A stretch of 64,000 nucleotides of DNA from Mustelus asterias. Its lineage: Eukaryota. Position numbers and translations under genes: made by a program. How positions within the stretch are numbered: position 1 is the stretch's first letter; each line of letters opens with the position of its first letter. Below are positions 1 through 48,492 of this stretch, piece after piece. Location: positions 3,720,001-3,784,000 of the forward strand of contig NC_135810.1 of NCBI RefSeq assembly GCF_964213995.1. Direction: 5' to 3'. The notes beneath the pieces are model-generated. The model made no database searches. It was not told where the DNA came from and saw only the letters and a list, made by a program, of their open reading frames with translations.

Positions 1-892
1 CGTGCCACCTATGACTGTGTGGCCAAATTCCCCTCCAACTCGATTTTCAGGTTTGCTGATAACACCACTGTAGTGGGTCAGACCTCAAACAATGACGACA
101 GAGTACGGGAATGAGAGAGAGAATTTGGTGAACTGGTGCGGCAACAATAATCTCTCCCTCAATGTCAACAAAATGAAGGAGATTGTCATTTACATCAGGA
201 AGCGTAGTGGAGGACAAGCCCCTGTCTACATCAATGGGGACAAAGTAGAAATGGTCGAGAGCTTCAGGTTTGTAGGTGTCCAGATCACCAACAACCTGTT
301 CTGGTCGCCCCCATGCCGACACTATAGTTAAGAAAGTCCACTGATGCCTCTACTTTCTCAGAAGACTAAGGAAATTTGGCATGTCCGCTTCGACTCTCAC
401 CAACTTTTACAAATGCACCATAGGAAGCATTCTTTCTGGTTGTATCACAACTTGGTATGGCTCCTGCTCTGCTCAAGACCACAAGGAACTACAAAAGGTC
501 ATGAATGTAGCCCAATCCATCACGCAAACCAGGCTCCCATCCATTGACTCTGTCTACACTTCCTGCTGCCTCGGCAAAGCAGCCAGCATAATTAAGGACC
601 TCACGCATCCCGAACATTCTCTCTTCCACCTTCTTCCTTCGGGAAAAAGATACAAAAGTCTGAGGTCACGTACCAACCGACTCAAGAACAGCTTCTTCCC
701 TGCTGCTGTCAGACTGCTGAATGGACCTACCTCGCATTAAGTTGATCTTTCTCTACACCCTAGCTGTGACTATAACACTACATTCTGCACTTTCTCCTTT
801 CCTTCTCTATGAAAGGTATGCTTTGTCTGTATAGCATGCAAAAAACAATACTTTTCACTGTCTACTAATACATGTGACAATAATAAATCAAA
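1..892 (+). mobile_element. Rex1/Babar-type LINE, 3' part (degenerate RT C-terminus plus 3' UTR), cut by the window edge
   Basis: Frameshifted RT-like peptides FADNTTVVG, LVNWCGNNNLSLNVNK and RTNRLKNSFFPAAVRLLN; ends in tgtgacaataataaatcaa. Homologous copies at 13494-13872 and 61847-62407. Confidence 0.8.
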
Positions 893-1074
893 TTATTTTT
901 CCCAGAGAGCTGTGGACATTTAGTACAGTCAAGACCAAGTTTTGAGCAGTAGAGAGGCAGGGATATGGGACACAGCAAGAAATTGGAGTTGGCACAACAC
1001 TTCGTCCAAAGACTCGTTAACTGGGTAAACTCGAGGGGCTTTATGACCTTGTCCCATTGTTATTTCTTATGTTC

Positions 1075-1345
1075 ATAAACTGAGGCTCTGTCTGCTCCCT
1101 CTGGCATACAGAAAAGATCCCACAGCACAATTTGAAGAACAGCAGGGGAGTGCTCCCTGATGTGGCGGCCAACATTTTTCTCTCAACTAACAACAAAAAC
1201 AGATTTATCTGGTCATTTAATTCACTGCTGTTTGTATGAGCTTGTTGGTGCATCTTGACTGCCACTTTTTCCATGATACCACAGTGACTGGACCTCAACA
1301 GCATTCAATAGACTATCAAGTGCTTTGGGCCAACCTGAGGTCATG
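1075..1345 (+). mobile_element. Old Deu-domain (SacSINE1/AmnSINE-like) SINE fragment
   Basis: taaactgaggc...aaaagatccca...gaagaacagcaggggagt...gctttggg...ctgaggtcatgaaaggc matches the DeuSINE body and tail as I recall them. Related pieces at 5070-5100, 8405-8590, 47865-47940 and 61280-61800. Confidence 0.55.
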
Positions 1346-1449
1346 AAAGGCAGCTCCTCCAAAACAGCAATAATTTCCTCAGTACAACTGTCTATCTTAT
1401 TACGCGTAATAAATTGCACTGAACTGCCAAAAACAATTCTTTTTTATTC

Positions 1450-1790
1450 CACAGGACGTGGGTGTCGCTGGCTATTGCAGCATTTATTGCCCATCCCTCA
1501 TTGCCTCAGGAATGTGGTGAGCTACCTTCTTGAACTGCTGCAGTCCCTGTGGTGTAGGTACACCCACAGTGCTGTTAGGGAGGGAATTGGGTTTTGACCC
1601 AGCAACAGTGAAGGAACAGCGATATATTCCCAAGTCAAAATGGTCTGGAGGGATACTTGTAGGTGTTCCTATGTGTGTGCTGCCCTTGTCCTTCCAGGGT
1701 GGTAGAGGTCAGGAGAGTTTGGAAGGTACTGTTGAAGGAACCTTGGTGAGTTACTGCAGTGTATGTTGCAGTTACAGTTTGGGGCATTTG
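1450..1790 (-). mobile_element. Degenerate LINE (CR1/L2 group) 3' fragment
   Basis: cagcatttattgcccatccct...ttgaactgctgcagtcc...acagtgaaggaac is a common shark LINE 3'-end motif (recalled). Confidence 0.5.
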
Positions 1791-2350
1791 GTACCGTATT
1801 CTCTTGCAATCTTTATTTCCCGTAACCTGAAAGTTGTGCTCTATGATCTGCTATCAGGGATCTGCATACTCAGGAATCTAACAACTATCCCATTTGCTGT
1901 CATCTGCTTACTGGAGTTAATAATTTTATTCTACACTATCCAATTCTCTTTGAGATTACACACATCACCACCCGCAAACACACAGCTGAAGCTTAAAGAT
2001 TAAAGCCACTTTTACATTGACTTTCAAATGGTGATATGAAGCATTAGAAGCAGCACTAAAATTACAATACATTTATAAAAATACATTGGCAACATCTGTA
2101 ATTAGCCACTGGGAAAAATAGCGACTGATCTAGTTCAGTTAAATTAATCTGTTAATATGGCAAGCTAAATTCAGCACATTCCACTGCCCGTCACCTCGCC
2201 AACTTCAAGCTTAAAATCTCAATGAGACCTTCACAATCTGCTCTGGCCAACAATTTCCAAAATAAATCTGCTGTCTTCTGACAAGTGCACCACTTCTTGA
2301 CGGCACACTGCTGCCTCACAGTGCCAGGAACTCGGGTTCAATTCCCAGAC

Positions 2351-2806
2351 CCAAAAGAGAAAATGCTGGAAAATCTCAGCAGGTCTGGCAGCATCCGTAA
2401 GAGAAAGGAGCTGACGTTTCGAGTCCAGGCGACCCTTTGTCAAAGCTAAAAGGCGTAGAAAGTGGGAGATATTTATACTGCAGGGTGAGGAAATGAAAGA
2501 TGAGTCATAGCAACAGAAACAGGGAAACCAGTTAATAGCTGTCCACAGAGAGAATAAAGGATGTGAATGGCCAAACGACAGATAAAATGAAGATGTTGGG
2601 GGAAGAGTGGGAAGAAGAATGAAGAAAGACAATAAAGAAATAAAAGGTAGAGAACAGTAAAAAAATTAAATAAAATAGAATGAAAACAAAGGGGTGGAGG
2701 TGGGGTAGAGCAGATCATCTAAAGTTGTTGAATTCAATGTTGAGACCGGAAGGCTATAAAGTGCCATGCTGGAAGAGGAGATGCTGTTCCTCCAGTTTGC
2801 GTTGAG
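2351..2806 (-). mobile_element. Penelope-like element 3' end (endonuclease C-terminus plus terminal repeat)
   Basis: Minus strand reads QRKLEEQHLLFQHGTL*PSGLNIEFNNFR*, the typical end of a PLE GIY-YIG domain. It is followed by a pyrimidine-rich UTR and a hammerhead-like terminus. Confidence 0.8.
2409..2447 (-). ncRNA. Minimal type I hammerhead ribozyme motif, U3-A8 core variant
   Basis: Minus-strand RNA: AGCU UUGACAA A GGGUC gccug GACUC GAA AC GU C AGCU. This gives stem I, core, 5-bp stem II, GAAA, palindromic stem III and a GUC cleavage triplet. Confidence 0.65.
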
Positions 2807-3524
2807 ATTCCTGGCTTGGGTCACTGTCTGTGCAGATCTGCACGTTCTCTCTGTGTCTGTGTGGGTTTCCTCCAGTTCCGTCCCACAGTCCAAAAGACAT
2901 GCTGGTTAGGTGCATTAGCCATGCTGAATTGTCCCTCAGTGTACCCAAACAGGCGCCGAAGTGTGACAACTGGGGGATTTTTACAGTAACTTCATTGCAG
3001 TGTGAATGTAAGCCTACTTGTGACCCTAATAAATAAACTTTTAAAACAAGTCTCATAAGCTGGGTTTTCCCTCCACCGCCAAACAAAACCAAGGAACATT
3101 TAATTCAATTAAAAACAAGAGGCAATTCTCAAAATTAATTGATGTAATTCTGATTTATAAACTACTTGAATGTACAAGCCACATCATTTTGATCAGTCCT
3201 TTGAATTGTGCTGTGGGATCTCAATAGAATTACCCACTAATTAAACCAAACCACTCCAATCTCAGATAGTGTGAACAATGTCGCAATGACAAATAACTTG
3301 GACTGTCACTGGTACATTCCAGGCTGCAACGAAACGTAAGATAGAGAAATAAAGCCACTAATGGCTCCAGAAAACTCAAATCACAAGCCACAATCAGTCC
3401 CCTGTATTCGTCCCCCACAGGATCAGGTTTGCCAACTCTGGATGGACTTATTCCTGAAGGCTTATTTACAGGACCTCCCAGCTCCAACCACCATGTCGAC
3501 TCAAAGAACCTTTTGTCCCATCTT

Positions 3525-3777
3525 CATAGAATCCCTGCAGTTCAGAAGGAGGCCGTTCAGCCCATCAAGTCTGTACTGACCACAATCCCAACCAGGCCCT
3601 ATTCCTGTAACCCCACACATTTACCCTGCTAATCCCCATGACATGAGGGTCAATTTAGCATGGCCAATCCACCCAACTTGCACATCTTTGGACTGGGAGG
3701 AAACCGGAGCATCCGGAGGAAACCCATGCAGACACGGGGAGAATGTGCAAACTCCACACTGACAGTCACCCAAGCCA
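3525..3777 (-). mobile_element. HE1-type V-SINE, 5'-truncated, CR1-like tail
   Basis: catagaaatccct...ggccgttcagcccatc tail and ggaggaaaccggagca body, shared with about 10 copies in the window. Confidence 0.85.
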
Positions 3778-4041
3778 ATGGAGAAAATGGAACAATGATC
3801 AAGAGACACAACTCTTCCTGGAGGCATTAATATTCACTGGATGATCTCTGCTGCCTGAAGTACCTTGGCACAGAGAACAAAGCTGGCATTTTCCAGGTCT
3901 CTATGGATCAGTCAAGCCCTAAGAGTGATGAAGAGTCTTCAAGGTCATTTATAAGCAAATCACACAGGCAGAGTCTGGCTGGCCTTTGGGGGGGGGGGGG
4001 GGGGGGGGGCAACTGTGATAAAATACAATTGTGGCATTTAG

Positions 4042-4205
4042 TCATAGAACATAGAACAGTACAGCACAGAACAGGCCCTTCGGCCCACGATGTTGTGCCG
4101 AGCTTTATCTGAAACCAAGATCAAGCTATCCCACTCCCTATCATCCTGGTGTGCTCCATGTGCCTATCCAATAACCGCTTAAATGTTCCTAAAGTGTCTG
4201 ACTCC
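4042..4205 (-). mobile_element. Young CR1 LINE 3' tail fragment
   Basis: (catagaa)n tail; about 95 bp identical to 20138-20233. Confidence 0.75.
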
Positions 4206-4853
4206 TGTTTGAAATACAGAGAAGGGGCAGAGTCTGATAAACAAATCAGACTGAAACTCTCTGAAGGTTGCGTTGTCAAGATCATCAAGATTGAAGTTTC
4301 AAAATAAATGTTATGTGTTCTCTCGTGTATACAATGAACTACTGCTCTAAATTCTATGCCTTCAATTGCTTGCTTTTGTTGTTTTGAAAATAGACATGGA
4401 TACAGAACTATATTTCTAAACTACAATATTATAGTACGATCAACAACACTCAATCTTAACAAAAACAAAGTTGGGTTTCAGGATAAACTTTTTTGCATGT
4501 GTTAAAACAGTGCCGTTTTCCCCCGGTTCAGTAAACAAAGATCACAAAATAGTAACATCAATGCCATTCGACTGCAGTAAGGACGTCTCAATTAATTATC
4601 CCGTATTACTGGATATTGGAGAACGATGCTCGCCATAAGAATACCTTGATTCCGAGATTCAAACTTCATTTTCCACTTCAAAAACAAATTTGAAATCTGG
4701 CACTTTAAATTTATATTATCCAAAATGATTTTTACCCTACAGAAAGTATATGTATCAATGTATCAACAGACTATTAGGTAAATAACAGCAAAGGCTGTAA
4801 ACGGAATGACGCATAGCTCAACAAACGTCATCGAGAACTGCCAAACCAGACAA

Positions 4854-4980
4854 GGGGTGAGTTTTTCCAGCCAAAATTGCCCCGAAGCCAGAAAATCCCA
4901 CCTGTGGTCAACAGACCTTTCCATGGTCTGCCCCTCGCCCACTACAATTCCTGTGGCGGGCAGAACAGGAAAATTCACTC
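4854..4980. mobile_element. Short MITE, possibly PIF/Harbinger-derived
   Basis: Imperfect terminal inverted repeats ggggtgagtttttcc / ggaaaattcactc, flanked by caa/taa. Reverse-complement homologue at 11829-11955. Confidence 0.55.
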
Positions 4981-5180
4981 TAAGATGTTAAACACTAACC
5001 TAGATGTCACACACCCACGTAAACATAAGAAGCCATTTACCTGTTCAAAAACAATTTACATTTATAAATTGCCTTTCATGACCTCAGCACATCCCAAAGC
5101 GAGGAATAACCATTGATGTAATGTAAGAAACATGACACCAAATTTGTGCACGGCATTGCGATAATCCGTTTGTTCTTTAA

Positions 5181-5493
5181 TCATAGAATCCCTACTGTGC
5201 AGAAGGAGACCATTTGGCCCATCGAGCTTGCACCGACAATAATCCCACCCAGGCCCTATCCCCATAACCCCACATATTTACCCTGCTAATCCCCCTGACA
5301 CCAAGGGACAATTTAAAATGGCCAATCAACCTAACCTGAACACCTTTGGAATGTGGGAAGAAAGCAGAACACCCGGAGGAAACCCACGCAGGCACAGGGA
5401 GAACGTGCAAACTCCATGCCGACAGTGACCTGAGGCTGGAATTGAACCCGGTGCCCAGGCTGTGAGGCAGCTGTGCTAACCACTGTGCCGCCG
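5181..5493 (-). mobile_element. HE1-type V-SINE, near full length
   Basis: Minus-strand head ggcggcacagtggttagcac (A box) and gggttcaattcc (B box), V domain and CR1-like tail. Confidence 0.9.
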
Positions 5494-5496
5494 AAT

Positions 5497-6062
5497 AGAT
5501 ATTGGCCCAGAACACTGGAGGAGAGTCTCCTCTCCCTAGCCAACAGACCCAGCGCTCATCACTCAAAACCAGCTCCACTGGGCAGGACATGTTGTTCACA
5601 TGCCTGACACCAAACTCCCGAAGGAAGTGCACTACCCAGAACTCAGCTGCAACAGGAGACGACCAGCCAGAATGATTTGGGGATGCCTTCAAAGCATCCC
5701 TGAAAAATTCAAAACTATCTGTCAGATCACTGGGAGACCCTGGCTTGTGACTAACCAAAATAGAGGATGTTCACTGGGGAAGGCTCTGAATATAGAATCT
5801 CTACTGTGCAGAAGGAGGCCATTCGGCCCATCACATCTGCACAGACTACTATCTCACCCAGCCCCTATCCCCTTAGCCCCACGTATTTTACCCCACTGGT
5901 CTCCCTGACACACTAAGGGGCAATTTAGCACGGCCAATCAACCTGACCCACACATCTTTGGACTGTGGGAGGACACCGGAGCACCCGGAGAAAACACACG
6001 CAGACACAGTATACTGAGAGGCTTGGCCAGGAAAGCGCAGAAGACAAGTCAAGGTGTCGGAA
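5497..6062 (+). mobile_element. RTE-clade LINE 3' fragment interrupted by a SINE
   Basis: Translates QLHWAGHVVHMPDTKLPKEVHYPEL, matching the RTE motif LRWxGHVxRM...PK. Confidence 0.65.
5791..6010 (-). mobile_element. HE1-type V-SINE, 5'-truncated
   Basis: Same tail and body as the 5181-5493 copy. Confidence 0.85.
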
Positions 6063-6063
6063 G

Positions 6064-6362
6064 AAGTTTAAGTTTATTTATTAGCGTCACAAGAAAGCTT
6101 ACATTAACACTGCAATGAAGTCACTGTGAAAATCCCCAAGTCGCCATACTCCAGCACCTGTTCAGATACCCAGAGGGATAATTTCGCATGGCCAATGCAC
6201 CTAACTAGCATGTCTTTCGGACTGTGGGAGGAAACTGGAGCACCTGGAGGAAACCCACGCAGACACAAGGAGAACGTGCAGACTCCACACAGACAGTGAC
6301 CCAAGCCGGGAATCAAACCCTGGTCCCTGGCACTGTCCCTGCTAACCACTGTGCCACCGTGC
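6064..6362 (-). mobile_element. V-SINE with alternative tail
   Basis: Reverse complement of the 6655-6941 type, including the aacttcattgcagtgttaatgtaag tail. Confidence 0.85.
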
Positions 6363-6654
6363 ACAAGTCCTCCAAACAACCTGTCAAACCCTGCCCTGCC
6401 CACAGCAGAGTCTGCAGGTAAAAGTACTGGGCATGTCAACCACCTCGAAGCGGAGGGGACGCACAGTCGTCCTTGACCTCGAGGGGCTGCCCAAGAGGCA
6501 GACTGCTTCCAGGAGCCCAAGATCAGGTACGGTGGTGCTGCACGGACTGGCCGAGCAGGCTCAGCTGTGTGGTCAACTCCTGCTCCTTTATAGACAGAGC
6601 CTTGTGTCAGGCTGGATGGAGTGTGTGTTCCAGGCTCTGGAGCCCCTGTGTCTG

Positions 6655-6941
6655 GGGCAGCACGGTGGCACAGTGGTTAGCACTGCTGCCTCACAGCACC
6701 AGGGACCCAGATTCGATTCCCAGCTTGGGTCACTCTCTGTGCAGAGTCTGCACGTTCTCCCCATGTCTGTGTGGGTTTCCTCCCACAGTCTGAAAGACCC
6801 GCTGGTTAGGTGTATTGGCCGTGCTAAATTCTCCCACAGTGTACCTGAACAGGTGCCGGAGTGTGGCAACTAGGGGATTTTCACAGTAACTTCATTGCAG
6901 TGTTAATGTAAGCCGACTTGTGACACCAATAAATGAACTTA
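6655..6941 (+). mobile_element. V-SINE with alternative tail, full length
   Basis: gggcagcacggtggcacagtggttagcac head, B box, V domain and tail ending tgtgacaccaataaatgaac. Confidence 0.9.
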
Positions 6942-7129
6942 ACTCAGAGCTGATTGTGTGTCACTGCCGCCCCCCCCCCCCCCCCCGGCGGCAGTCTGAA
7001 GGGTGAGTCAACAAAGAAATTGAATCAATGCAAAACAGTCACTAACATAGAGTCATTGTTGGAGTCAATAATCAGAAGGTCAGCTCCCTGATCCGGGCCT
7101 GGTTACTCCATCCTGTTAAAGTCAGTGCC

Positions 7130-7400
7130 GTCTCCCCGGGCAACCAGTCCCAGATATAAAGCCGCTTCTTTTATTTCCCTTTCTAACTGCGCCAATCCGC
7201 CCTGCCGCCTGCCCCGCTATTACAGTTTTTAATGTTGTTTAAAACCGTTCACCTTCAGTATCTGGATTGCCCGCCCCATCGCACAACCCCCTCTGCGAGC
7301 CGCCATCTTCCCGTGACCTCTCATCCCGGGCAGAGGGGGCGTGGCCGAGCCAGCAGCCAATCCGCACTCATGGAACTCAAGCCAAGTGACGCAATAGCCA
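7130..7400 (-). promoter_or_regulatory. CpG-rich housekeeping-type promoter / first-exon region
   Basis: Unique GC-rich island among repeats, with YY1 motif gccgccatctt (7299-7309), GC box gggggcgtggcc, two gccaatccgc boxes and a CRE-like gtgacgca. Confidence 0.6.
7253..7306 (-). CDS. PCCA: Probable first coding exon of propionyl-CoA carboxylase alpha (mitochondrial presequence start), MAARRGGCAMGRAIQILK
   Basis: Strong Kozak gggaagATGG, phase-0 donor AAG|gtgaac and an Arg-rich peptide without acidic residues. PCCA lies downstream of ZIC2 on the same strand in human, and its exon 1 ends ...AALRTLK (recalled). No further exons were found in the window. Confidence 0.55.
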
Positions 7401-7413
7401 GGTAGGATGGACA

Positions 7414-8099
7414 ACTGACCAGGTCAACACACTAACCAGGACAACACCTTCAACAGGTCAACACCTTCATCAGGTTAACACACTCACCAGCTCAACACCT
7501 TCATCAGGTTAACACACTCACCAGCTCAACACCTTCATCAGGTTAACACACTCACCAGCTCAACACCTTCATCAGGTTAACACACTCACCAGGTCAACAC
7601 TTTCACCAGGTTAACACACTGTCCAGCTCAACACCTTCACCTGGTCAACACCTTCCCCAGGTCAACACAGAGACCAGTTTAACACACTGACGAGCTCAAC
7701 ATGTTCACCAGGTTACCACACTGACCAGGTCAACCCCTTCACCAGGTCAACACACTGACCAGGACAACACATTCACCACGAATCCCCTTCACCAGGTCAA
7801 CACATCGACCAGGTCAATACACTCACCAGGTTAAACCACTGACCAAGTCAACACCTTCATCAGGTCAACACACTGACATGGTCAACACCTTCACCAGGTC
7901 AACACACTGACCAGGACAACACATTCACCACGTCAACCCCTTCACCAGGTCAACACATCGACCAGGTCAATACACTCACCAGGTTAAACCACTGACCAAG
8001 TCAACACCTTCATCAGGTCAACACACTGACATGGTCAACACCTTCACCAGGTCAACACACTGACCAGGTGAACACTGACCAGGACAACACCTTCACCAG
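7414..8099. repeat. 17-bp minisatellite (~40 units) with higher-order structure
   Basis: Units caggtcaacacactgac / caggtcaacaccttcac. A 153-bp (9-unit) block is duplicated (marker cacatcgac at 7801 and 7954). Confidence 0.95.
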
Positions 8100-8282
8100 C
8101 ATTGGGCATCATTCTCCAAGGACAACCTCTTTTGGTCAATTTCATTCTTTTGGTTAAATGGCTTCCAGTCTGCTCCCAGCTTTTCCCAATTCTACTGGTA
8201 ACACCGCTCACTGCCACCTGCCCCATGGCAGGGTCTGCAGATTGCGAAGTGGACCCACCAGCCGTGTCAGAATCCCTCGAAC

Positions 8283-8360
8283 CAGAATTGAAACATTAAC
8301 TCAGTCTCTCTCTCTCTCCACAGACCTCTTGAGTTTTGTTCCTGCACTTTCTGTTTTTCT
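8283..8360 (+). mobile_element. Degenerate Penelope-like terminal fragment
   Basis: gaaacattaactc...tctccacagacct..tgagtttt..cctgcactttctgttttt aligns with the reverse complement of 2352-2420. The ribozyme 5' core is lost. Confidence 0.45.
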
Positions 8361-8784
8361 GATGGTAATACTCATATCTCTGAGTCACACAATTCACCTT
8401 CATGGCTGATGCTCACAGTGTAGTAAATGAGGGAGTGCTGCACTGTCAGGAGTGCCCTTTTTCAGATGAGACATTAAACTGAGGTCCTCTTCCGCCTGCT
8501 CAGAGGCCAGAGTTACCAGGATTCTCTCAGAATGGTTCAAAATCAAAAAGTGTGTTGAACAGGAGGTGTCCTCTCACCATATTTATTCAACATCTGAACA
8601 AAAATGGCCGTGAGAGAGACATCTAATGGATATAAAAGTGGGATACCAATTGGCGGGCAGCGAGTTTTGAATCTGCAATGTGCTGCTGACATTATTCTGC
8701 TTGCTAACTCGGTTGAGGAGCTATAGGAGTTGGTGAAATTGCCGAGATTAATGTCGACAAGACAAGGTGAAGGGAATGGGCGGG

Positions 8785-11527
8785 TGTTATGCTGTGGATG
8801 TTATGGCATTATCAGGAGATTCCAGACTTTGTAAGGAACAAAAGGTATTTATTGATAAGAGAAACTTTGGTAAAGAGATTTATTGATAAGAGAAACTATC
8901 GCGTAGGGCTGGGAGTCTGAATGGGGAGGCATTTGTAAAATGCGTACAGGAAGGTTCTTTGGAACAATATGTAGATAGCCCGACTAGAGAGGGGGCTATA
9001 CTGGACCTAGTACTGGGGAATGAGCCCGGTCAGGTCTTCAAAGTTTTGGTAGGGGAACATGTGGCAAATAGTGACCACAATTCTGTTAGCTTTAGGATAG
9101 TGATGGAAAAGGATAAGTGGTGTCCCAAGGGTGAGGTGTTGGATTGGGGCAAGGCTAACTTTAATGGGATTAGGCAGAAATTGGCAGCTGTTGATTGGGA
9201 GAGGCTGTTTGAGGGTAAATCCACATCTGGCATGTGGGAGTCTTTTAAGGAACAGTTGTTCGGGCTGCAGGATAGGCATGTGCCTGTAAAAAAGAAGGAT
9301 AGGAAGGGTAGGATTCGAGAACCGTGGATAACCAGGGAAATTGAGAGATTGGTCAAAAAGAAAAGAGTGGCGTACGTTAGGTTCAGGCAGCTAAAAACGG
9401 AGGGAGCTCTGGAGGAATACAAAGAAAGTAAGAAAGAACTCAAACGAGGAATTAGAAGGGCAAAAAGGGGTCACGAAATGTCCTTGGCAGACAGGATTAA
9501 GGAGAATCCCAAGGCATTTTATTCATACGTTAGGAACAAAAGGGTTGTCAGGGAAAAAATCGGACCTCTCAGGGACAAAAGTGGGGAATTATGCTTAGAG
9601 CCCAAAGAAGTAGGGGAGATCCTAAATGAATACATGGCGTCGGTATTCACAAAGGAGAGGGATGTGTTGACTGGGAGTGTCTCGGAGGGGAGTGTTGAAC
9701 CGTTAGAGAAAATCTCCATTACAAGGGAGGAAGTGTGAGGTGTTTTAGGTAATATAAAGACTGACAAATCCCCAGGGCCTGATGGAATCTATCCCAGGCT
9801 GCTCCGGGAGACGAGAGATGAAATCGCTGGGCCTCTGACGCAAATCTTTGTCTCGTCACTGGACACAGGTGAGGTCCCAGAGGATTGGAGGATAGCTAAT
9901 GTGGTCCCGTTATTTAAGAAGGGTAGGAAGGATAACCCAGGAAATTATAGGCCGGTGAGCTTGACGCCCGTGGTAGGGAAGTTGTTGGAGAGGATTCTTA
10001 GAGATAGGATGTATGCGCATTTAGAAAGGAATAAACTCATTAATGATAGTCAGCATGGTTTTGTGAGAGGGAGGTCATGCCTCACTAACCTGGTGGAGTT
10101 TTTTGAAGAAGTGACTAGAATGGTTGACGAGGGAAGGGCCGTGGATGTTGTCTATATGGACTTTAGTAAAGCGTTTGACAAAGTCCCTCATGGTAGGTTG
10201 GTGCAAAAGATTGGATCTCATGGGATAAAGGGGGAAGTGGCTAGATGGGTGGAGAACTGGCTTGGTCACAGAAGACAGAGGGTGGTAGTGGAAGGGTCTT
10301 TTTCCGGCTGGATGCCTGTGACTAGTGGTGTTCCGCAGGGCTCTGTATTGGGACCTCTGCTGTTTGTGATTTATATAAACGATCTGGAAGAAGGTGTAAT
10401 TGGGGTGATCAGTAAGTTTGCGGACGACACGAAAATGGCTGGACTTGCAGATAGTGAGGAACATTGTCAGAGGCTAGAGAAGGATATAGATAGGCTGGAA
10501 ATTTGGGCAAAGAAATGGCAGATGGAGTTCAATCCAGATAAATGCGAAGTGATGCATTTTGGTAGAACTAACGTAGGGGGGAGCTGTACGATAAATGGCA
10601 GAACCATAAAGGGTGTAGATACGCAGAGGGACCTGGGTGTGCAAGTCCACAGATCCTTGAAGGTGACGTCACAGGTGGAGAAGGTAGTGAATAAGGCATA
10701 TGGCATGCTTGCCTTTATAGGACGGGGCATAGAGTATAAAAGTTGGGGTCTGATGTTGCAGTTGTATAGAACGTTGGTTTGGCCGCATTTGGAATACTGC
10801 GCCCAGTTCTGGTTGCCACACTACCGGAAGGACGTGGAGGCTTTAGAGAGAGTGCAGAGGAGGTTTACCAGGATGTTGCCAGGTATGGAAGGGCTTAGTT
10901 ATGAGGAGAGATTGGGTAAACTGGGGTTGTTCTCACTGGAAAGACGGAGGATGAGGGGTGACCTAATAGAGGTGTATAAAATTATGAATCCTCTCTCAGG
11001 CATAGATAGGGTGAACAGTGGGAAGCTTTTTCCCAGATTGGTGGTGACGTTCACGAGGGGTCATAGGTTCAAGGTGAGGGGGGGGGAGGTTTAACACGGA
11101 TATCAGAAGGACATATTTTACACAGAGGGTGGTGGGGGCCTGGAATGCGCTGCCGGGCAAGGTGGTGGAGGCGGACACACTGGGAACGTTTAAGACTTAT
11201 CTAGATAGCCACATAAACGGAGTGGGAATGAAGGGATACAAAAGAATGCTTTAGTTTGGACCAGGGAGCGGCACGGGCTTGGAGGGCCGAAGGGCCTGTT
11301 CCTGTGCTGTATTGTTCTTTTTTTGTTTGGTACAGGAAGTTTGCAGTTCTGGGCTGCCCTAGAGCAGCAGCTTCATTCCTTACATGCTTACTACATGGCT
11401 GCTCGATGATTCTGCCTGAGAGAGGATTCCACCCTCTGCTGTGATCGCTCACTCTCAGTTCCCCATTGGTCTGTCAAGTCAGGTCTGCAGTACTGTCTTA
11501 AAGAGTCAGACACCACACACACAAACA
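8785..11527 (-). mobile_element. Probable solo LTR (~310 bp) interrupted by the CR1 element
   Basis: TGTT...AACA termini, flanks gcggg/ccggg (5-bp TSD with one mismatch), minus-strand AATAAA and CCAAT. It interrupts the RTE reading frame. Confidence 0.45.
8900..11320 (+). mobile_element. Young 5'-truncated CR1 (HER1-like) LINE; ORF2 pseudogene
   Basis: ORFs 8959-9738 and 9901-11094 are one frame broken by TGA at 9736. Motifs PTREGAILDL, SDHN, PGNYRPVSLT, GVPQGSVLGP and KFADD are present, with a frameshift in the G run near 11080 and tail tgctgtattgttcttt. Confidence 0.95.
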
Positions 11528-29762: not shown

Positions 29763-31802
29763 TCAGTCAAGCAAAAGCACAAATCCTTCAATCTTCCGCC
29801 GCTCGATTATGACCAGATTCCACACTCCTCAAAACACCTGGATTCAAACACTTTAAAAACACACCGGCCAGTTCACCATGGTGTTTACAACCCGTCTTGA
29901 CATTGTTAACCACAAATCCTCTCCCCCCACCAAAACAAAATACATGAACACACACAAAATATATTTCAAAATGAGCCACACTGAATATAAAGTGGACGGA
30001 AATGCGCTTGACAAAATTGATTTAGGTTGGAGTGATTAATGTGAATGCGCCAAGTACTTGCTTTCTTAAGTCCTGTGTTGTTCGGGGGTCCCTTTCTCTG
30101 AATGGAAGTGGTCGCATTAAAAAGATTCGCAGCTGCCTCCCTCAGTCGATGGCAACACACGGAAAGGAAATAGTCCATCGCGTTTACACAATGGCCGAAT
30201 GTAATTAAAGAGCTCGCTTAGACTTGCAGAATTGAAGTGTATTAAATTAATTGATCCACGCGGTTTCTAGAAATAAAATAGCCGAACAATGATGAAGCCA
30301 CACAAGCCCCAATTTAGCGCCATCGATAGCCACGCAGAGGGATTTTTTTTTAACAGTCCCCGGATAATTACAAATGAACTGATTTACAGGAATGCACTCT
30401 CTTGTTTTTTTAAAAAAAAAAGTCAATTGTATCGGAAACACTGGAAATGTCCCATCCCAACTTTGCATTTACTGAGCGGCGGAACTAGGTGAAAATGACA
30501 CAAGGATCCCGCTGAATGCGGGGAGGGGGGAGACAATGTAACATTACCACCATTAGCATTTAAATTGTTTCCGAAAAGATATGTAAACCGCCTCGAAATC
30601 TGAAGGATACCTACTCCGAGCAAATAAATTTCGCAGTTGAAAACCTTGTTAAAGACTCGTCTGGCACCTATGACTAATCATACACTTGAATGAACAATGG
30701 CTTTCATCCTGTTACCACGCTCAGAGAAGCAAATAGTTATTGTGTGTCTGTGTGTGTGTGTTTTATATTTTTAAAAATCTTATTAATTAATTACCGCTTT
30801 TGTTTTTTTTTAATTCCCTTTGAAGAACCAGCGCTAAGAGAGAACACAAACACGATGGTAAATAATGAATGTTGCACGCGTGGACCTCAAAGCTTCATTT
30901 CTCAAACTTGCTGCCACGTTTTACACACTGGAGCCTCTGTCCTTACATTGCATCTTGACCCATATTCAAAGTTTATGCTCCAAAGAAAGGCGAGCGCTGA
31001 TGACATAATTCTACACACACACAGGAGGAATATTATGCAATAACAGCATAAATTGTAAGGCACAGCTGTTGTGGTTGAATAACGCTCTCTGCTATCTAAC
31101 TGTGTGTGTGTGTGTGTGTTTATCTTTTAAAACTTGTAGCCCCAGGCAAACATCGCAACGCGATTTCCAAATATTTTAAGGTATTCCACACGCCAAACAT
31201 TTCAATTCGATCGCCCATCGCAAGGCCAGGGATGAGCAGAGTTTGTGAGATGTGTATTGTTTCTGAAATCGCCACCAACAGCAATTATTATTATTGTTTT
31301 TAACCATTTAACCTGATTCAATTTCCTAAGGATTAAAGAGCATTCTGAAAACGGACCGAGTATTAAAATGTGTCAAATAATTTACAGATTATTCATTCGC
31401 CGTGTACCCCACGTTCTTTTAGCAAGTATTTAAATTATACCCGGCCTTGTTCCGAGACCAAGAAGCAGCGGCGAGTGGAGATTTCTCAAACGGTTCATTT
31501 ACAACGTGTCTGGGGGGAAAGTTTAATTTTTCATTGTCAGGGTAATCTTATTTTCAGTGTCTTTATATATATATTTTTTTCATTGAGATGAGAGCGGAAA
31601 CATAAATACGATTGAGGGTGAGATGTGTAAGGAATTGAGCTGTGTGGACAGAGGGAGGCATTCGGCGCTCTGTAAGAACCGGTCAACACAAACCGCGGAT
31701 CCGCAGGGTCTAGCGGGATGGTTGGGGGGAGAGGGAAGAGGGAAGGGGGGGGGGGGGGGGATGGTGGAGAAAGTCTCAGGAAATGTTGTCTATTTTTTTT
31801 AC

Positions 31803-32805
31803 CTGTATGGGTGCGTTTGTGGATCTTTAAGTTCTCCGACCTGGCGAAAACTTTCCCGCATCCCGGGAAGGGGCAGGGGAAAGGTTTCTCCCCCGTGTGG
31901 ACCCTGATGTGATTCACCAGTTTGTACTTGGCTTTGAAGGGTTTTCCCTCCCGGCCGCACTCCTCCCAGAAGCAGATATGGTTTGTCTGCTCGGGTCCGC
32001 CGACATGTTCCACTGTAACGTGGGTGACTAGCTCATGCATGGTGCTGAAGGTTTTGTTACAGGACTTTTTGGGGTTCTGCATCTGCTCCGGGTCGACCCA
32101 CTTGCAGATGAGTTCCTGTTTGATGGGCTGCCTCATGTATCTGAAGAAGGCTCCGGGACCATGGTGAGCTGCCATGTTCATGCTCATGTTCATATTCATG
32201 TGGCCATAGTTGTGGTGGTGATGGAGTTGTGCCGCCGAGTAAGGGTCAGTCCTCGGACACTGGTCGGAGCGCCCGAACATTTCCCCGGGCAGTCCCAGCC
32301 GCATCTGGCCGTTCAGGACGTGCGCGTTTGGGGAAGTGTGGGTCCCTCCTTGCTCATGGATGCCCGGGAATAGGAGGTGTCCCGGCGTGTCCGAGTGAGG
32401 GTGGTGGAGGGCTCCCGGGTTGCCCCCGAAGATGCCGTGCTGCCCGGAGCCGGGGCTTGAGTCTCCGAAGCCGCGGCTGCGGAACAGAAAGTCCCGGGTG
32501 GAGTTGAAAGCGGCGCCCGAGTAAGAGCTGACATGGGCGGCGTGGGGGGCCAGGGCGGCCGCGTAGCCCGGGCCAGCCGCCGCCTGCGAGCTGAAAGCCG
32601 AGCTCTGGCCGGGAGACGAGAGGTCGTGGTGGACGCTGCCGTTCAGTTTGAAAGCCCCCATGTGCGGCGGGTCGGCGAAGCTGTTTTGGGACAAGCCCAG
32701 GTCCCGCTCCGATAGCTCTGCGCTCGAGTGGTGGTGATGGTGATGGTGCCGCCCGAAGGTGCCCACCCCCAGGGTGGGAAACTGGGGTCCCGCGTCCAGC
32801 AACAT
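31803..32805 (-). CDS. ZIC2: Zic2 exon 1 (N-terminus, ZOC, ZF-NC, ZF1-ZF3)
   Basis: Starts [10 protein letters not shown]; ZOC motif [13 protein letters not shown]; Zic2-type [12 protein letters not shown] and [11 protein letters not shown]; donor ACAG|gtaaaa, phase 1. Spliced product 450 aa. Confidence 0.95.
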
Positions 32806-32859
32806 GCTTCTCAAAGCAGGGGAGAGGACAAACAGATCTCCCCCCACCCCCACGCAGAG

Positions 32860-33005
32860 CAACACACACACACAGACTCAGACACAGAGAGACACACACA
32901 GACTCAGGCAGAGAGAGAGACACACACACAGGGACTCAGACACAGAGACAGATACACACTCACACACAGACTCAGGCAGAGAGAGACACAAACACACACA
33001 CACAG
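32860..33005. repeat. Compound (CA)/(GA) microsatellite in the Zic2 5' leader
   Basis: Repeated acacacacagactcag(g/a)caga(ga)n modules. Confidence 0.85.
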
Positions 33006-43150: not shown

Positions 43151-43330
43151 TTGAACTGCACTCAATAGTGTATTTGCAAGCTTCGTTTTTTTGTGTGTGT
43201 GTGGGGGGTGGGGGGGGCGGGTGGGGGGGTGGGGGTGGGATGGGAGGGAGGGGGGATTTGAAGAGAGAGTGTGTTTTTTTTAAAAAAAGCTGTACCACCA
43301 ACTAGTGTGGATGGACAGGCTTATGTAGTT

Positions 43331-44342
43331 ATGGAAGCCGCGTTAAGCAAGCGGAACCCAGCACTGAGATTAGCGGATCTGGCAGCGAACAAATACCATT
43401 CCCATCAGAATATGTCAGGCTTCCCGGGGCTGGTGAGCCATCCACACCTCCACCCCGGGGAGATGAGCGGCGACCCCAGTGTGGCTCTCACCCCCTTTGG
43501 GCCCGAGCACATGGCTCAGTCTAGTGGTGTCCTCAAACTGAGTCCATCCCAGCACATGGCTGGCCACCCCGAGACGCAGACGGCGGCGATTTTCGGCTCC
43601 GCACAGAACTCGGGCAGTTACCCAGCGGGTCACCCCCACTCGGGCTACGCGAGCGGCAGGGACTATATCCTCAGGAGAGATCTCTCAGCGTCCGTGATGC
43701 ACGGGCTACCCGAGCAGCACCCATCGTCTGCCTCCCACCATCACCATCACCATCACGGCATGTTTCTGTCCACCACCGCCAGCTGCGGGCATCCGGAGGT
43801 ATTCCCGGGACTCCACGAGCAGTCGGCACCGGGATCCCACCATACTTTAAACGGACAGATGCGCCTGGGCTTGCCGGGGGATCTCTACAGGCCGGAACAT
43901 TTCAACCACAGAGCTGAACATTACCCCGCTTCTTCCCTACACTCTTACAACTCCATGAATTTGAACGTTAACCTGGCAGCAGCTCATCACGGCGCCGGGG
44001 CATTCTTTAGATACATGAGGCAACCCATCAAGCAGGAACTCATCTGCAAGTGGATTGACCAAGAAGAGACTTCAAAGAAACCTTGTTCGAAAACTTTTAG
44101 CACCATGCACGAGTTGGTGAACCATGTCACGGTGGAACATGTCGGTGGACCCGAGCAGAGCGTCCACATTTGTTACTGGGAGGATTGTCCCAGAGAGGGG
44201 AAACCGTTCAAGGCGAAATACAAACTGGTGAATCACATTCGAGTTCACACAGGGGAGAAACCCTTTCCGTGTCCCTTTCCGGCCTGCGGGAAGGTATTCG
44301 CTCGCTCGGAAAACTTAAAGATACACAAAAGGACTCACACAG
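43331..44342 (+). CDS. ZIC5: Zic5 exon 1 (N-terminus, ZF-NC, ZF1-ZF3)
   Basis: [37 protein letters not shown] and Zic fingers; donor ACAG|gttggt, phase 1; head-to-head with Zic2. Confidence 0.94.
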
Positions 44343-47300
44343 GTTGGTGTTTCTAAAGCACTTTTGCGCTTTTGTTTTCCCCTCGCCCGAGTACATCTCG
44401 TGGCTACATCCATCTCCGGGCGAAGCTCTGATAAGTTAAAAAGAAAAGTTAGCACTTACCCCCCCCTACACACACACCCTTCAATCGAGAATCTTAACCA
44501 TTATCATCATAGAATCACAGAACCCCTTCACATCATAAGCAGGCCCGTATCTGATACACTCGCCTATAATTGGACACAAATTCTGAGAATGTGGAATCAG
44601 AGCAACGATGTTCCGTCTGTAAGGTTCTGGAGATTTCCGATGTCGGGAGACAGGCCGGGAACATTTGCAAACGGGTTTAAAACAGGGGGCCTCCCTTTGT
44701 CTCCCGCCCGGGGAATCTTGAGAGAACATGTCACTAATTTTAAATGTCGGCACCGGAGCTTTGACTGGAGGTGTTACTGGGTTTTAAAGAAGCGAATTCC
44801 GCCCCCCCCCCCCTCCTCTCCTGTCCACCCCTCAATTAAAGTCCGATATTTCAAATCAAGAAAAAATAAGTACATTGAGAATGAGCAGAGTAAAGTGAAA
44901 GCCCAGATTGGCACAGAGAGATTTCAGTGCAGTTTTGTGAACGGTTTAGTACGGGGAGGGAGTGGAACTTGGAAATCGGAAAAAGCGAGTTGGTTTTGCT
45001 GCTGAAATGCGCTATTTCAGAGTTTTTGGGAGGAACTATCCCGAGACAGTGTCAGCCAGCACCGTTTGTGAGAGTTATCAGCAGTAACTATCCAGGAACA
45101 ATCCCTGCCCCCAGGGCTGTGCCCCATCTAACTTGTACAAAGTTTATTGCGTATCCTCGCGTATGGCTTTTAGTTTCTTGCGAAATCAGGAAAGCTGGTC
45201 AGAATTTATTGTTGCAGACAGATATGATTCCTTGGAGAATGTTTATTGACGTATGCTTTGCTTAAGTGTTTGCCCTGATTTATAGTGTGCTGTCACAGGG
45301 TCTAAACAGATAGTGTTACACTTATTCCTTTAATGTCTTCTTAATTTGTTGTTTAAATGTTAAAGCAAATGGTCCATGACTGCCCTGATTACAGATTTTA
45401 TCTAAAGAATATGTTGCACGAGTTTTTTTTAAAAGAACATCAGGGTGTGGGGTTGGGAGCGAACCTGGAACACGTATTCCAGCTATATTGGGAAGGACCC
45501 AATAGGAGGGATAGATTCGGTTGCCCGGATCCTGTCCATCTCTTCTCAACAGAAGTGTGGAAAGTAAGGGACCTGTTTAAAACTTCCATTTTATTCAGTT
45601 TGTAGTCTTATATCCTCCCAACACTGTATCCTAAAGATAAATCACAACGGAACGCACTGGAGCACTCACTCACTAGCTTTTCAGGCCTCTTAATGGTTCC
45701 GAACTAGGGTTAGAAAATGGTCACCTTTTGAGTAGTGTCCATTTGGACCTAGAGAAAAAAAATAACAGGAGTTCGGGGAGGGTTAACTGCTCACATTCTG
45801 ATATTTTTAAATGGGCCATAGATTAAAAATAACACAAAAAATGGTAATTAGCGTCACACGGGGAAGCAGAATTACTTTCTTCACTTCAGTGGAGCAGCGA
45901 GGTAAAATTGCCAATCAACTTAATGTCTGTCCAACAAATGAAACCCGATGTTGCTGAGATTCAGAGTGGGTGCAGTGCAGAGCTCGCCGCCAAAAACATA
46001 ACTTTTCAGATAGATGTAACGGTGACCCCCAGGCAAAAACACACACAATATGGCGATGTGCGCCAAGTGTGTTTGTAAAGTCAATTACCATAATTATTTG
46101 CTCCTTTTTTTAAAAAAAGAAAAGAAAGTACACTCTGCCTGTCCGAATGGGTGTGTGCTGTCTGCCTTTCAGTGTCAGGGTTTGAGGATTGATAAGTTTG
46201 GAAACTCTCAAGTGTTCGGAAACAAAGGCTGTGGTTACCCTGAGGGTTTGCTAAGAGTTCGCTCTGTGTTTGATACACTTGATAAACGAAGGCATTGATA
46301 TGCTGAATGACACGTCCTTATGAGAGGAAATTCCACTCTGTACCTGACCCACACATTAGAAATGTGGCCTAAAACAGTGCATCTGAAGGAGGAAAATGCA
46401 TGGGAAGCGCAGGGAAATCCGAGTAGCAGTCAGGTTCATGATGACAGGGGCAGCTTTAAATGGAGTCAGTTTACACTCATTGCCATGAAGAGGGGGTTAT
46501 GTTTGAGGGCGAATCTGTTTTTAGCATGGAGTGCTTTCTGGACCCCCAAGCTCAACGCAAAAATGCAACACGGCAGTCAAAGGTTGTCAGTGTCTTTCTC
46601 CTAACGTCACAGCTTGGGGGCCAGAAACTCCTCTCTAACCGCCAGTCCAAACACCAGACGCTTTGGAAGTGCTAGTTTATGAGCAGCCCCTGGGAGCCAG
46701 GCACTGCATCGGGCTGCCGCAGTCCACACAGCTAAATATAAATGTTTACAATGTAAAACAGAACCGGGACGGTGTAACAGTGGAAGACGCCTGTGGCCTC
46801 TGCATTTGGCCAGCCCCATTTCAATCCCCGCGTAAGAATATTAACACCAATTAGATCAAAGACAAGGACATTTTGCAAAGATTCCGCCAAGTGTTTGTCG
46901 GACACTAAGATGTTCAAGGCAAGTGAACCTCAATCATGTTAGCGAGAGGGGTCCAAAAATGCATTTCCAATGATGCAAAATGCCTCTGCTTACAAAGATG
47001 GCCACCAAACCTGGAGTTATTGTCCTCGTTCAAGTTAACTCCAAACAAACAAGACAGAGCGTGATATGAATCCGATTTCCATTTGAACCCCAATCTGAGA
47101 ATAAATATGTAGGCGAGATTTCTGCTCGATTACTTAGTGCAGAGTTGGCCTGTAATGTTGATGCTACTCTTGGTGACCGGGACATTTCAATGGAACACAT
47201 TTTAATATTGTAGATAGGAATACATTTGCCTAAGTATCAGGTCACTAGGCGCTGGACTACAGAATAAACAATGAAAGAAACAGTGTAAAGGACACACAAA

Positions 47301-47940: not shown

Positions 47941-48058
47941 TTACTTTTGAATACAAGACTCAAATGGTTACAATGAACCGCGGGCATTGTTTGAAAAACC
48001 TTATTATATAAAAGCACTCGACTGTGTTCCCTTACATTGTTTTCTTTACTATTTTCAG

Positions 48059-48492
48059 GAGAGAAACCTTTCAAATGCGAGTTTGATGGTTGTGACAGGA
48101 AATTTGCCAATAGCAGCGACAGAAAGAAACATTCTCACGTCCACACCAGCGACAAACCGTACAACTGTAAAGTGAGGGGCTGCGACAAATCTTACACTCA
48201 TCCCAGTTCCCTTCGCAAACACATGAAGGTGCATTGTAAATCTCCGCCGCCCCCCCTCAGCTCGGGATACGAGCTCTCAAACACGCCCTTGGGGATGGTG
48301 TCCCCGGCCTCGGAACCAGCCAGAGGCCGCACTGCCAGCGTCTCCTCGCAAGTCACCAACCTCAACGAGTGGTACGTCTGCCAGGGTAGCGGGGCTGCCA
48401 ACAGCCTGCACACCCCGTCAAGCAATGGCACCTCATCCGACACCGAGGATGAGGAGGCTTACAGGGACCCGGACCCCAGGACAATGCTCTGA
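48059..48492 (+). CDS. ZIC5: Zic5 exon 2 (ZF4-ZF5 and C-terminus)
   Basis: Acceptor ttttcag|GA; [24 protein letters not shown] (Zic4/5 type) and NLNEWYVCQ...[17 protein letters not shown] (Zic5 tail). Spliced product 481 aa. Confidence 0.95.

What the first reader, a model, noticed from the sequence alone, without database searches (positions are those of the whole stretch)
2409..2447. Hammerhead ribozyme with a compensatory U3-A8 core, in sense orientation inside the putative PCCA intron 1
Seen: the minus strand folds as stem I AGCU/AGCU, core UUGACAA, one extra A, stem II GGGUC/GACUC, GAAA, loopless palindromic stem III (ACGU) and a GUC triplet, with the predicted cut between 2413 and 2412. 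Established: the canonical core is CUGANGA, C3 pairs with G8 in the active fold, and Penelope-like elements carry minimal, probably dimer-dependent hammerheads. Here both positions are changed together (C3U, G8A), which keeps the pair. Inference: this PLE lineage fixed a covarying, probably active core that a CUGANGA search would miss, and it lies on the transcribed strand of the probable host gene.
Basis: partly seen in the sequence, partly recalled or inferred. Interest (0 to 1): 0.7.

Follow-up and report, generated by a model that had tools for sequence, protein, structure and literature searches.

The report
Shark Penelope hammerhead, known U-A core
This hammerhead-shaped RNA motif is one of about 4,000 or more copies carried at the end of a Penelope-like jumping gene; its swapped U-A core pair is the family norm and is already published, and this lone copy in an intron of a gene predicted to be PCCA is likely a passenger that does not cut the host RNA.

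Summary
The motif is real and sits where described. It lies in the terminal repeat (pLTR) of a 456-base, 5'-truncated Penelope-like element (2351-2806, minus strand) that landed inside a SINE with an 8-base target duplication, in predicted intron 1 of PCCA, sense strand. U3-A8 is the family norm: 3,941 of 4,133 exact matches, against 38 C3-G8. A sister subfamily keeps C3-G8, so this is a fixed paired change, not CpG decay. But natural U3-A8 cores were published in 2011, and in Penelope elements in 2014. This copy probably does not cut: helix III needs a partner copy, none lies on the same strand in the 97 kb examined, and five sense and four antisense hammerhead remnants sit in these introns. 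Family-wide, 54 of 100 sampled copies begin at the motif's first bases, 30 bases behind a conserved TATA box, and 1 of 100 at the cut site; no cleavage footprint was found (55 against 40 and 40 in controls). The scan has noted this kind of motif many times on other DNA. Verdict: new member of a known kind, low interest.

The parts
2409..2447 (-). Minimal type I hammerhead motif with U3-A8 core; first 39 bases of the PLE pseudo-LTR
2437..2443 (-). Core UUGACAA (U3 at 2443, A8 at 2438)
   Evidence: family counts
2421..2435 (-). Helix II, 5 pairs and a 5-base loop
   Evidence: pair probability 0.99 alone, 0.04-0.8 in context
2412..2417 (-). Loopless palindromic ACGU (helix III only between two copies), GUC triplet, predicted cut 2413/2412
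   Evidence: ACGU duplex only -1.7 kcal/mol
2472..2477 (-). TATAAA box, 30 bases before the first base of the hammerhead; predicted PLE promoter
   Evidence: at exactly -30 in 54 of 157 U3-A8 subfamily motifs and once elsewhere; same spacing in the sister subfamily
2351..2806 (-). 5'-truncated Penelope-like element copy: endonuclease C-terminus, 3' UTR, TATA, pLTR without the 35-base tail
2715..2806 (-). Broken last codons of the PLE ORF (one internal stop), matching the end of the RT + GIY-YIG protein of longer copies
2341..2348 (+). Left copy of the inferred 8-base target-site duplication
2807..2814 (+). Right copy of the inferred target-site duplication; the two copies differ only at the CpG
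2306..2345 (+). 5' part of the interrupted SINE-type repeat (label recalled, from no call)
2807..3048 (+). 3' part of the same interrupted repeat
7253..7306 (-). Predicted PCCA coding exon 1 (18 codons, phase-0 GT donor); exon 2 lies left of the window
   Evidence: gene identity

Best explanation
The motif is the minimal hammerhead at the start of the terminal repeat of an abundant Penelope-like retrotransposon whose master lineage likely fixed a compensatory C3-G8 to U3-A8 swap, and this truncated copy in the predicted PCCA intron 1 is likely an inert passenger. Shown: family membership, copy counts, the C3-G8 sister subfamily, the RT + GIY-YIG parent, the insertion anatomy. Inferred mechanism in the parent element: RNA polymerase II starts 30 bases behind a TATA box at the first base of the hammerhead; reverse transcription starts at one of two internal sites about 100 or 135 bases downstream and runs to the RNA's 5' end, giving the many pLTR-only and mirror-image copies; the hammerhead would cut only slowly and conditionally, when two copies pair through ACGU or the element's protein helps it fold, so nearly all copies were made from uncut RNA. 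The 3-8 pair was likely kept because that conditional cut, or the fold, still mattered to the master element. In the host intron the copy has no partner and is predicted to be folded otherwise most of the time.
For: Counts: U3-A8 3,941 (by subtraction), C3-A8 87, U3-G8 67, C3-G8 38 of 4,133; C3-G8 is 12 times the 3.2 expected from independent changes and those copies carry sister-subfamily flanks. Sister set with GUU: 1,881 matches; first 100 listed are 69 C3-G8, 21 C3-A8, 4 U3-G8, 6 U3-A8, the 6 all with the U3-A8 subfamily's loop (counted by hand). Sample anchored outside the motif: 74 of 83 copies spanning the core are U3-A8, 0 C3-G8. Majority sequences differ at 16 of 136 places, including 3 and 8, with all other conserved core bases and helix II unchanged. 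Parent: 732-residue frame with RVT_1 (E 6e-7) and GIY-YIG (E 0.006, under cut-off); L289 begins at the motif's first base, L290 has two pLTRs 3.6 kb apart. 5' starts: 54 of 100 at -35 to -32, 1 at the cut. 3' ends: 42 and 48 of 100 in two clusters about 35 bases apart, as for the two start sites in PMC11167929. Inertness: no second same-strand family copy; 5 sense and 4 antisense hammerhead remnants in 97 kb; stem I probability 0.01-0.18 in context; 23 of 100 copies are as intact as this one. PMC4209133: a single minimal motif showed no cleavage.
Against: The swap is one evolutionary event between two subfamilies, so thousands of copies are not independent proof of selection; which state is ancestral was not tested with a tree. 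No RNA of this organism was available, so the start site, the exons and the absence of cutting are inferred from DNA. In PMC11167929 a single PLE hammerhead cut when the element's protein was added, so a lone intronic copy could be cut in cells that express the protein. This copy keeps an intact core, stems and TATA box. The 100-copy sample comes from one 12-Mb stretch of one contig, and arms of mirror-image insertions are not independent.
Confidence: 0.85

Rival explanations
1. The U3-A8 core is dead or nearly so: the subfamily lost cleavage and spread anyway, and the paired look is a hitch-hiked double change (G8A by CpG decay in a master copy, C3U by chance), with the rest kept for promoter or protein-binding reasons.
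For: No cleavage footprint: 55 pattern matches at the cut against 40 and 40 at control positions (P 0.25); 0 of 30 inspected are junctions with host DNA; 97 of 100 sampled copies include sequence 5' of the cut. G8A arises easily by CpG decay (21 of 100 sister copies). PMC11167929: hammerhead mutants insert normally in vitro. PMC8557442: PLE clades without hammerheads reach high copy numbers.
Against: Both partners changed while every other conserved core base and helix II stayed. The same swap recurs in Schistosoma PLEs (PMC4209133) and in other natural hammerheads, and is reported active in vitro (PMC3088659, citing Przybilski and Hammann 2007, which I could not read). Cut RNA may simply not be copied, so lack of a footprint does not show lack of cutting.
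Confidence: 0.25
2. This copy is an active or co-opted intronic ribozyme that cuts PCCA pre-mRNA and affects its splicing or level.
For: Sense strand of predicted intron 1; intact core and stems; the acceptor-like AG of the family is changed in this copy, as expected if the insertion were tolerated in a transcribed intron; protein-assisted cutting of a single motif is reported (PMC11167929).
Against: No helix III as a monomer, no same-strand partner, low stem I probability, and no lack of sense-strand hammerheads in these introns. Intactness is common (23 of 100). The copy is 88-95% identical to 42 other long copies, so it is an ordinary dispersed insertion.
Confidence: 0.05
3. Long copies such as this one were copied from circular RNA made by hammerhead cutting and re-ligation, so the intact motif inside them is a ligation junction and the ribozyme is central to transposition.
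For: Proposed in PMC4209133. 18 of 100 sampled copies run through the motif into the 3' UTR, which a circle would allow.
Against: Read-through RNA from partial tandems (L290) explains the same copies. Most copies stop at the motif's first base, which a circle lacks.
Confidence: 0.1

Closest known systems
Minimal hammerheads (min-HHR) in pLTRs of metazoan PLEs, U3-A8 variant of Schistosoma mansoni Cercyon elements (Cervera and De la Pena 2014, PMC4209133; parts 1-3 of 4 of the text read, one of two supplement files searched)
   Same: U3-A8 instead of C3-G8; extra base between 9 and 10.1; G10.1-C11.1; palindromic 15.2-16.2 without loop; short helix I; mostly single dispersed copies from truncated PLEs.
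   Different: Here in a vertebrate (shark-like, recalled from repeat content) genome, with a C3-G8 sister subfamily for comparison; helix II is 5 pairs; no shark species name was found in the supplement file searched.
Natural U3-A8 hammerheads (Perreault et al. 2011, PMC3088659; passages read)
   Same: Same compensatory core change, reported in several natural examples and stated to be active in vitro.
   Different: The passages read do not concern loopless, dimer-dependent PLE motifs.
PAc, Poseidon PLE of Anolis (Frangieh et al. 2024, PMC11167929; parts 1-2 of 4 read)
   Same: pLTR hammerhead; two reverse-transcription start sites giving an optional 30-40 base tail; uncut RNA is the main template; no RNA-seq ends at the cut site.
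   Different: PAc has C3-G8 and its ORF starts inside the hammerhead; here the core is U3-A8, there is no start codon in the core, and the protein has a Cys-rich linker as described for Neptune.
Animal non-LTR retrozymes (bioRxiv 10.64898/2026.07.22.740005; part 1 of 5 and passages read)
   Same: Type I hammerhead related to PLE pLTRs, present in a chondrichthyan genome.
   Different: Retrozymes are tandem, non-coding units; this copy is solitary and carries the end of the PLE ORF.

Membership tests
Metazoan PLE minimal hammerhead (min-HHR) | Core YUGANRA ... GAAA ... UH with a Watson-Crick 3-8 pair | tested here: met
   U3-A8, all other core bases canonical
Metazoan PLE minimal hammerhead (min-HHR) | Extra base between 9 and 10.1, G10.1-C11.1 pair, palindromic 15.2-16.2, helix I of 4-5 pairs | tested here: met
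   against the features listed in PMC4209133
Metazoan PLE minimal hammerhead (min-HHR) | Located in the pLTR of a PLE | tested here: met
   same motif at both ends of L290 and at the 5' end of L289
Metazoan PLE minimal hammerhead (min-HHR) | Self-cleavage as a dimer or with protein | not testable with these tools
   needs biochemistry; the genomic footprint test was negative
EN+ Penelope-like element | One ORF with RT and C-terminal GIY-YIG endonuclease | tested here: met
   RVT_1 E 6e-7 (over cut-off); GIY-YIG E 0.006 and 0.0005 (under cut-off) in 2 of 5 frames scanned
EN+ Penelope-like element | pLTRs, partial tandems, inverted 5'-truncated partners, optional 30-40 base tail | tested here: met
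   features as in PMC8557442 passages
Neptune clade of PLEs | Cys-rich zinc-finger-like linker between RT and EN, and placement in an RT tree | tested here: inconclusive
   A C-x4-C-x2-C linker is seen in the L277 frame; no tree was built
Non-LTR retrozyme | Tandem non-coding units, each with a hammerhead | tested here: not met
   solitary copy with ORF end
Conserved intronic host hammerheads (RECK/HH9 type; features recalled) | Full helix III, single-copy and conserved beyond its flanks across species | tested here: not met
   no helix III in a monomer; member of a family of thousands; orthologous presence in relatives not resolved

The most novel reading that the evidence does not exclude
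In this PLE subfamily the hammerhead is the first 39 bases of a TATA-driven capped RNA, and the U3-A8 swap slowed or gated its cutting so far that the subfamily left no cleavage footprint, while C3-G8 subfamilies in the same genome are reported by earlier unchecked notes to leave one. The genome would then hold a natural side-by-side test of whether core chemistry sets how much PLE RNA is cut in the germ line, and whether less cutting helped this subfamily outnumber its sister.
Probability: 0.2. Interest if true: 0.55.

Novelty: new member of a known kind. Interest (0 to 1): 0.2.

Why it matters
As it stands it is one more example of a published variant, useful as a reminder that CUGANGA-only searches miss thousands of vertebrate PLE hammerheads. 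The role of PLE hammerheads is an open question (PMC8557442, PMC11167929). The paired subfamilies, which differ at positions 3 and 8, and the sharp start of copies at the motif's first base give material to test it. Nothing found suggests an effect on PCCA.

Tried and rejected
Rfam scan of window 1-10000: 3 matches at E <= 10, none a hammerhead. Folding z-scores: not informative. CpG decay as the source of the family core: rejected. Cleavage footprint in the U3-A8 subfamily: not found; the 30 of 55 loci inspected were 20 mirror-image junctions sharing the AGCU palindrome, 4 other inverted junctions and 6 small indels; the controls also contain such junctions. RNA: no RNA holder listed; the first read-laying attempt gave no result. 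Laying contigs on 1850-3400 could not show whether relatives carry this insertion, because contigs end inside the SINE; it listed no difference at 2443 or 2438 in four runs of three organisms, but the 90% likeness filter favours that result and 5 rows were not shown. A first exon-2 search with a too narrow rule missed it. Papers not held: Przybilski and Hammann 2007, Hammann et al. 2012. Literature searches; I saw no paper on shark U3-A8 PLE hammerheads in these listings, but most subscription papers, one supplement file of PMC4209133 and the bioRxiv supplements were not visible. search by place near and by sequence in earlier findings: nothing.

Full report
Observation. Folding energy alone does not mark it (z = -1.0) and Rfam has no hammerhead match in window 1-10000. 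Its reality comes from the repeat family it belongs to.

What it is part of. A search of the window's own genome (3.68 Gb) with 2345-2800 gave 5,518 candidates, 40 scored, at 79-94% identity. The minus strand of 2806-2715 encodes the broken end of an ORF that, in longer copies, is a frame of up to 732 residues with a reverse transcriptase (RVT_1, E 6e-7) and a weak C-terminal GIY-YIG match (E 0.006; 0.0005 in another copy; both under the cut-off). Locus L289 begins exactly at the motif's first base and runs into the ORF; L290 has the motif twice, 3.6 kb apart. So the motif opens the pseudo-LTR of an endonuclease-bearing Penelope-like element. A Cys-rich linker suggests the Neptune group, but no tree was built. 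The window's copy spans 2351-2806, is 88-95% identical to 42 other long copies, and splits a SINE-type repeat; the eight bases on each side (2341-2348, 2807-2814) match the commonest empty-site form (36 of 107 SINE copies) except at its CpG, which reads as a target-site duplication.

Is U3-A8 the family form? Yes. A pattern that leaves positions 3 and 8 free has 4,133 exact matches and 0 in the reversed control: 38 C3-G8, 87 C3-A8 (18 of these are identical copies on a few small contigs), 67 U3-G8, hence 3,941 U3-A8. Independent changes would give 3.2 C3-G8; the 38 mostly carry another loop and other flanks, so they belong to a sister subfamily. With a GUU triplet that sister set has 1,881 matches, and the first 100 listed are 69 C3-G8, 21 C3-A8, 4 U3-G8 and 6 U3-A8, the last all with the U3-A8 subfamily's loop (counted by hand). 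CpG decay therefore makes A8 often in dead C3-G8 copies but does not make U3-A8. In 100 copies picked by a 33-base anchor outside the motif (the first 100 of 9,292 matches, all on one contig), 74 of the 83 that span the core are U3-A8 and none C3-G8. The two majority sequences (56 and 9 copies) differ at 16 of 136 places, among them 3, 8, 17 and 1.1 (A-U to G-U), with helix II and the other conserved core bases unchanged. This is a fixed paired change, but it is one event, and its direction was not tested.

How the parent likely works. Of the 100 copies, 54 begin at the first four bases of the motif, 18 run far upstream, and 1 begins at the cut. A TATA box lies exactly 30 bases before the motif in 54 of 157 U3-A8 subfamily motifs examined and once elsewhere (many of the rest lack upstream element sequence); in the sister subfamily it lies at -30 in 5 of 40 and at -29 and -26 once each, although the spacer differs. 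The window copy has it at 2477-2472. I infer that transcription starts at the motif's first base. The 3' ends fall in two clusters about 35 bases apart (42 and 48 of 100), matching the two internal reverse-transcription start sites and the optional tail shown for the anole element (PMC11167929, parts 1-2 of 4 read). That paper also found that the hammerhead cuts only with protein, that uncut RNA is the main template, and no RNA-seq ends at the cut.

Is there a record of cutting? Earlier notes on this genome report copies starting at the cut in other subfamilies (unchecked). For this subfamily a pattern for starts at the cut gave 55 matches against 40 and 40 at positions -4 and +4 (P 0.25). Of 30 of the 55 inspected, 20 are mirror-image junctions that share the AGCU palindrome with an arm starting at the motif's first base, 4 are other inverted junctions, 6 are small indels, and none is a junction with host DNA. 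So there is no footprint here. That does not show the core is dead, since cut RNA may not be copied. The sister subfamily was not tested.

The host gene. A minus-strand exon 76 kb left of the window matches human PCCA 101-139; exons 3, 4 and 6 were located with recalled motifs; a 78-base exon-2 candidate was the only one passing the splice filter, 1,174-1,251 bases left of the window, and an exon-1 candidate lies at 7306-7253. The motif is thus in predicted intron 1, sense strand. Nothing marks this as special. In the 97 kb from exon 1 downstream there are five sense and four antisense hammerhead remnants of PLE type, and no second same-strand copy with ACGU. Helix III cannot close without a loop, the ACGU duplex is worth -1.7 kcal/mol, and stem I has probability 0.01-0.18 in three longer contexts. 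23 of 100 copies are as intact. In PMC4209133 a single minimal motif did not cut and dimers cut weakly. Against this reading: the copy is intact, protein-assisted cutting of a single motif is reported, and no RNA of this organism could be examined.

Novelty. U3-A8 covariation in nature was reported in 2011 (PMC3088659, passages) and in PLE hammerheads of Schistosoma in 2014, about 1,300 hits (PMC4209133). The scan itself has noted shark U3-A8 PLE hammerheads in other genomes and 120 hammerhead notes in this genome. I saw no paper on the shark family in four searches, with the limits given under Tried and rejected. The labels shark, SINE, CR1 and ZIC are recalled and come from no call.

Verdict. 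Observation confirmed; interpretation partly supported; new member of a known kind; interest 0.2. The part worth following is the family-level comparison of U3-A8 and C3-G8 subfamilies, not this intronic copy.

Noticed in passing
window 31540-32877 (-), 43262-44353 and 47995-48489 (+): Divergent pair of zinc-finger genes that look like ZIC2 and ZIC5 (names recalled), inside a CpG-rich domain from about 20 to 57 kb; fits the known ZIC5-ZIC2-PCCA order.
   Followed up: no
window 17566 (+), and six places 24-88 kb left of the window: A second PLE-type hammerhead family with a canonical CUGAUGA core and an AGCU palindrome, in both orientations.
   Followed up: partly
window 2396: The family majority has a pyrimidine tract ending in CAG just after the hammerhead, like a splice acceptor; in this sense-strand intronic copy the AG is changed to GG. 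May be chance or selection against cryptic splicing.
   Followed up: no
window 7306-8070 (-): Predicted PCCA exon 1 is short (18 codons); a GC box and inverted CCAAT-like words lie just upstream, followed by a degenerate tandem repeat of about 600 bases.
   Followed up: no
G000 contigs C85, C102, C103, C141, C155, C940, C1004, C1355: 18 identical C3-A8 (mismatched core) copies, probably multiplied as part of a larger duplicated unit rather than by transposition.
   Followed up: no
L289:4093-4135 and L290:4413-8138: Near full-length elements: L289 starts at the hammerhead's first base behind an inverted tail; L290 is a partial tandem with two pLTRs.
   Followed up: partly
window 8890-11091 (+): Two long frames of a LINE-type reverse transcriptase (CR1-like, label recalled) just upstream of the PCCA promoter.
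   Followed up: no
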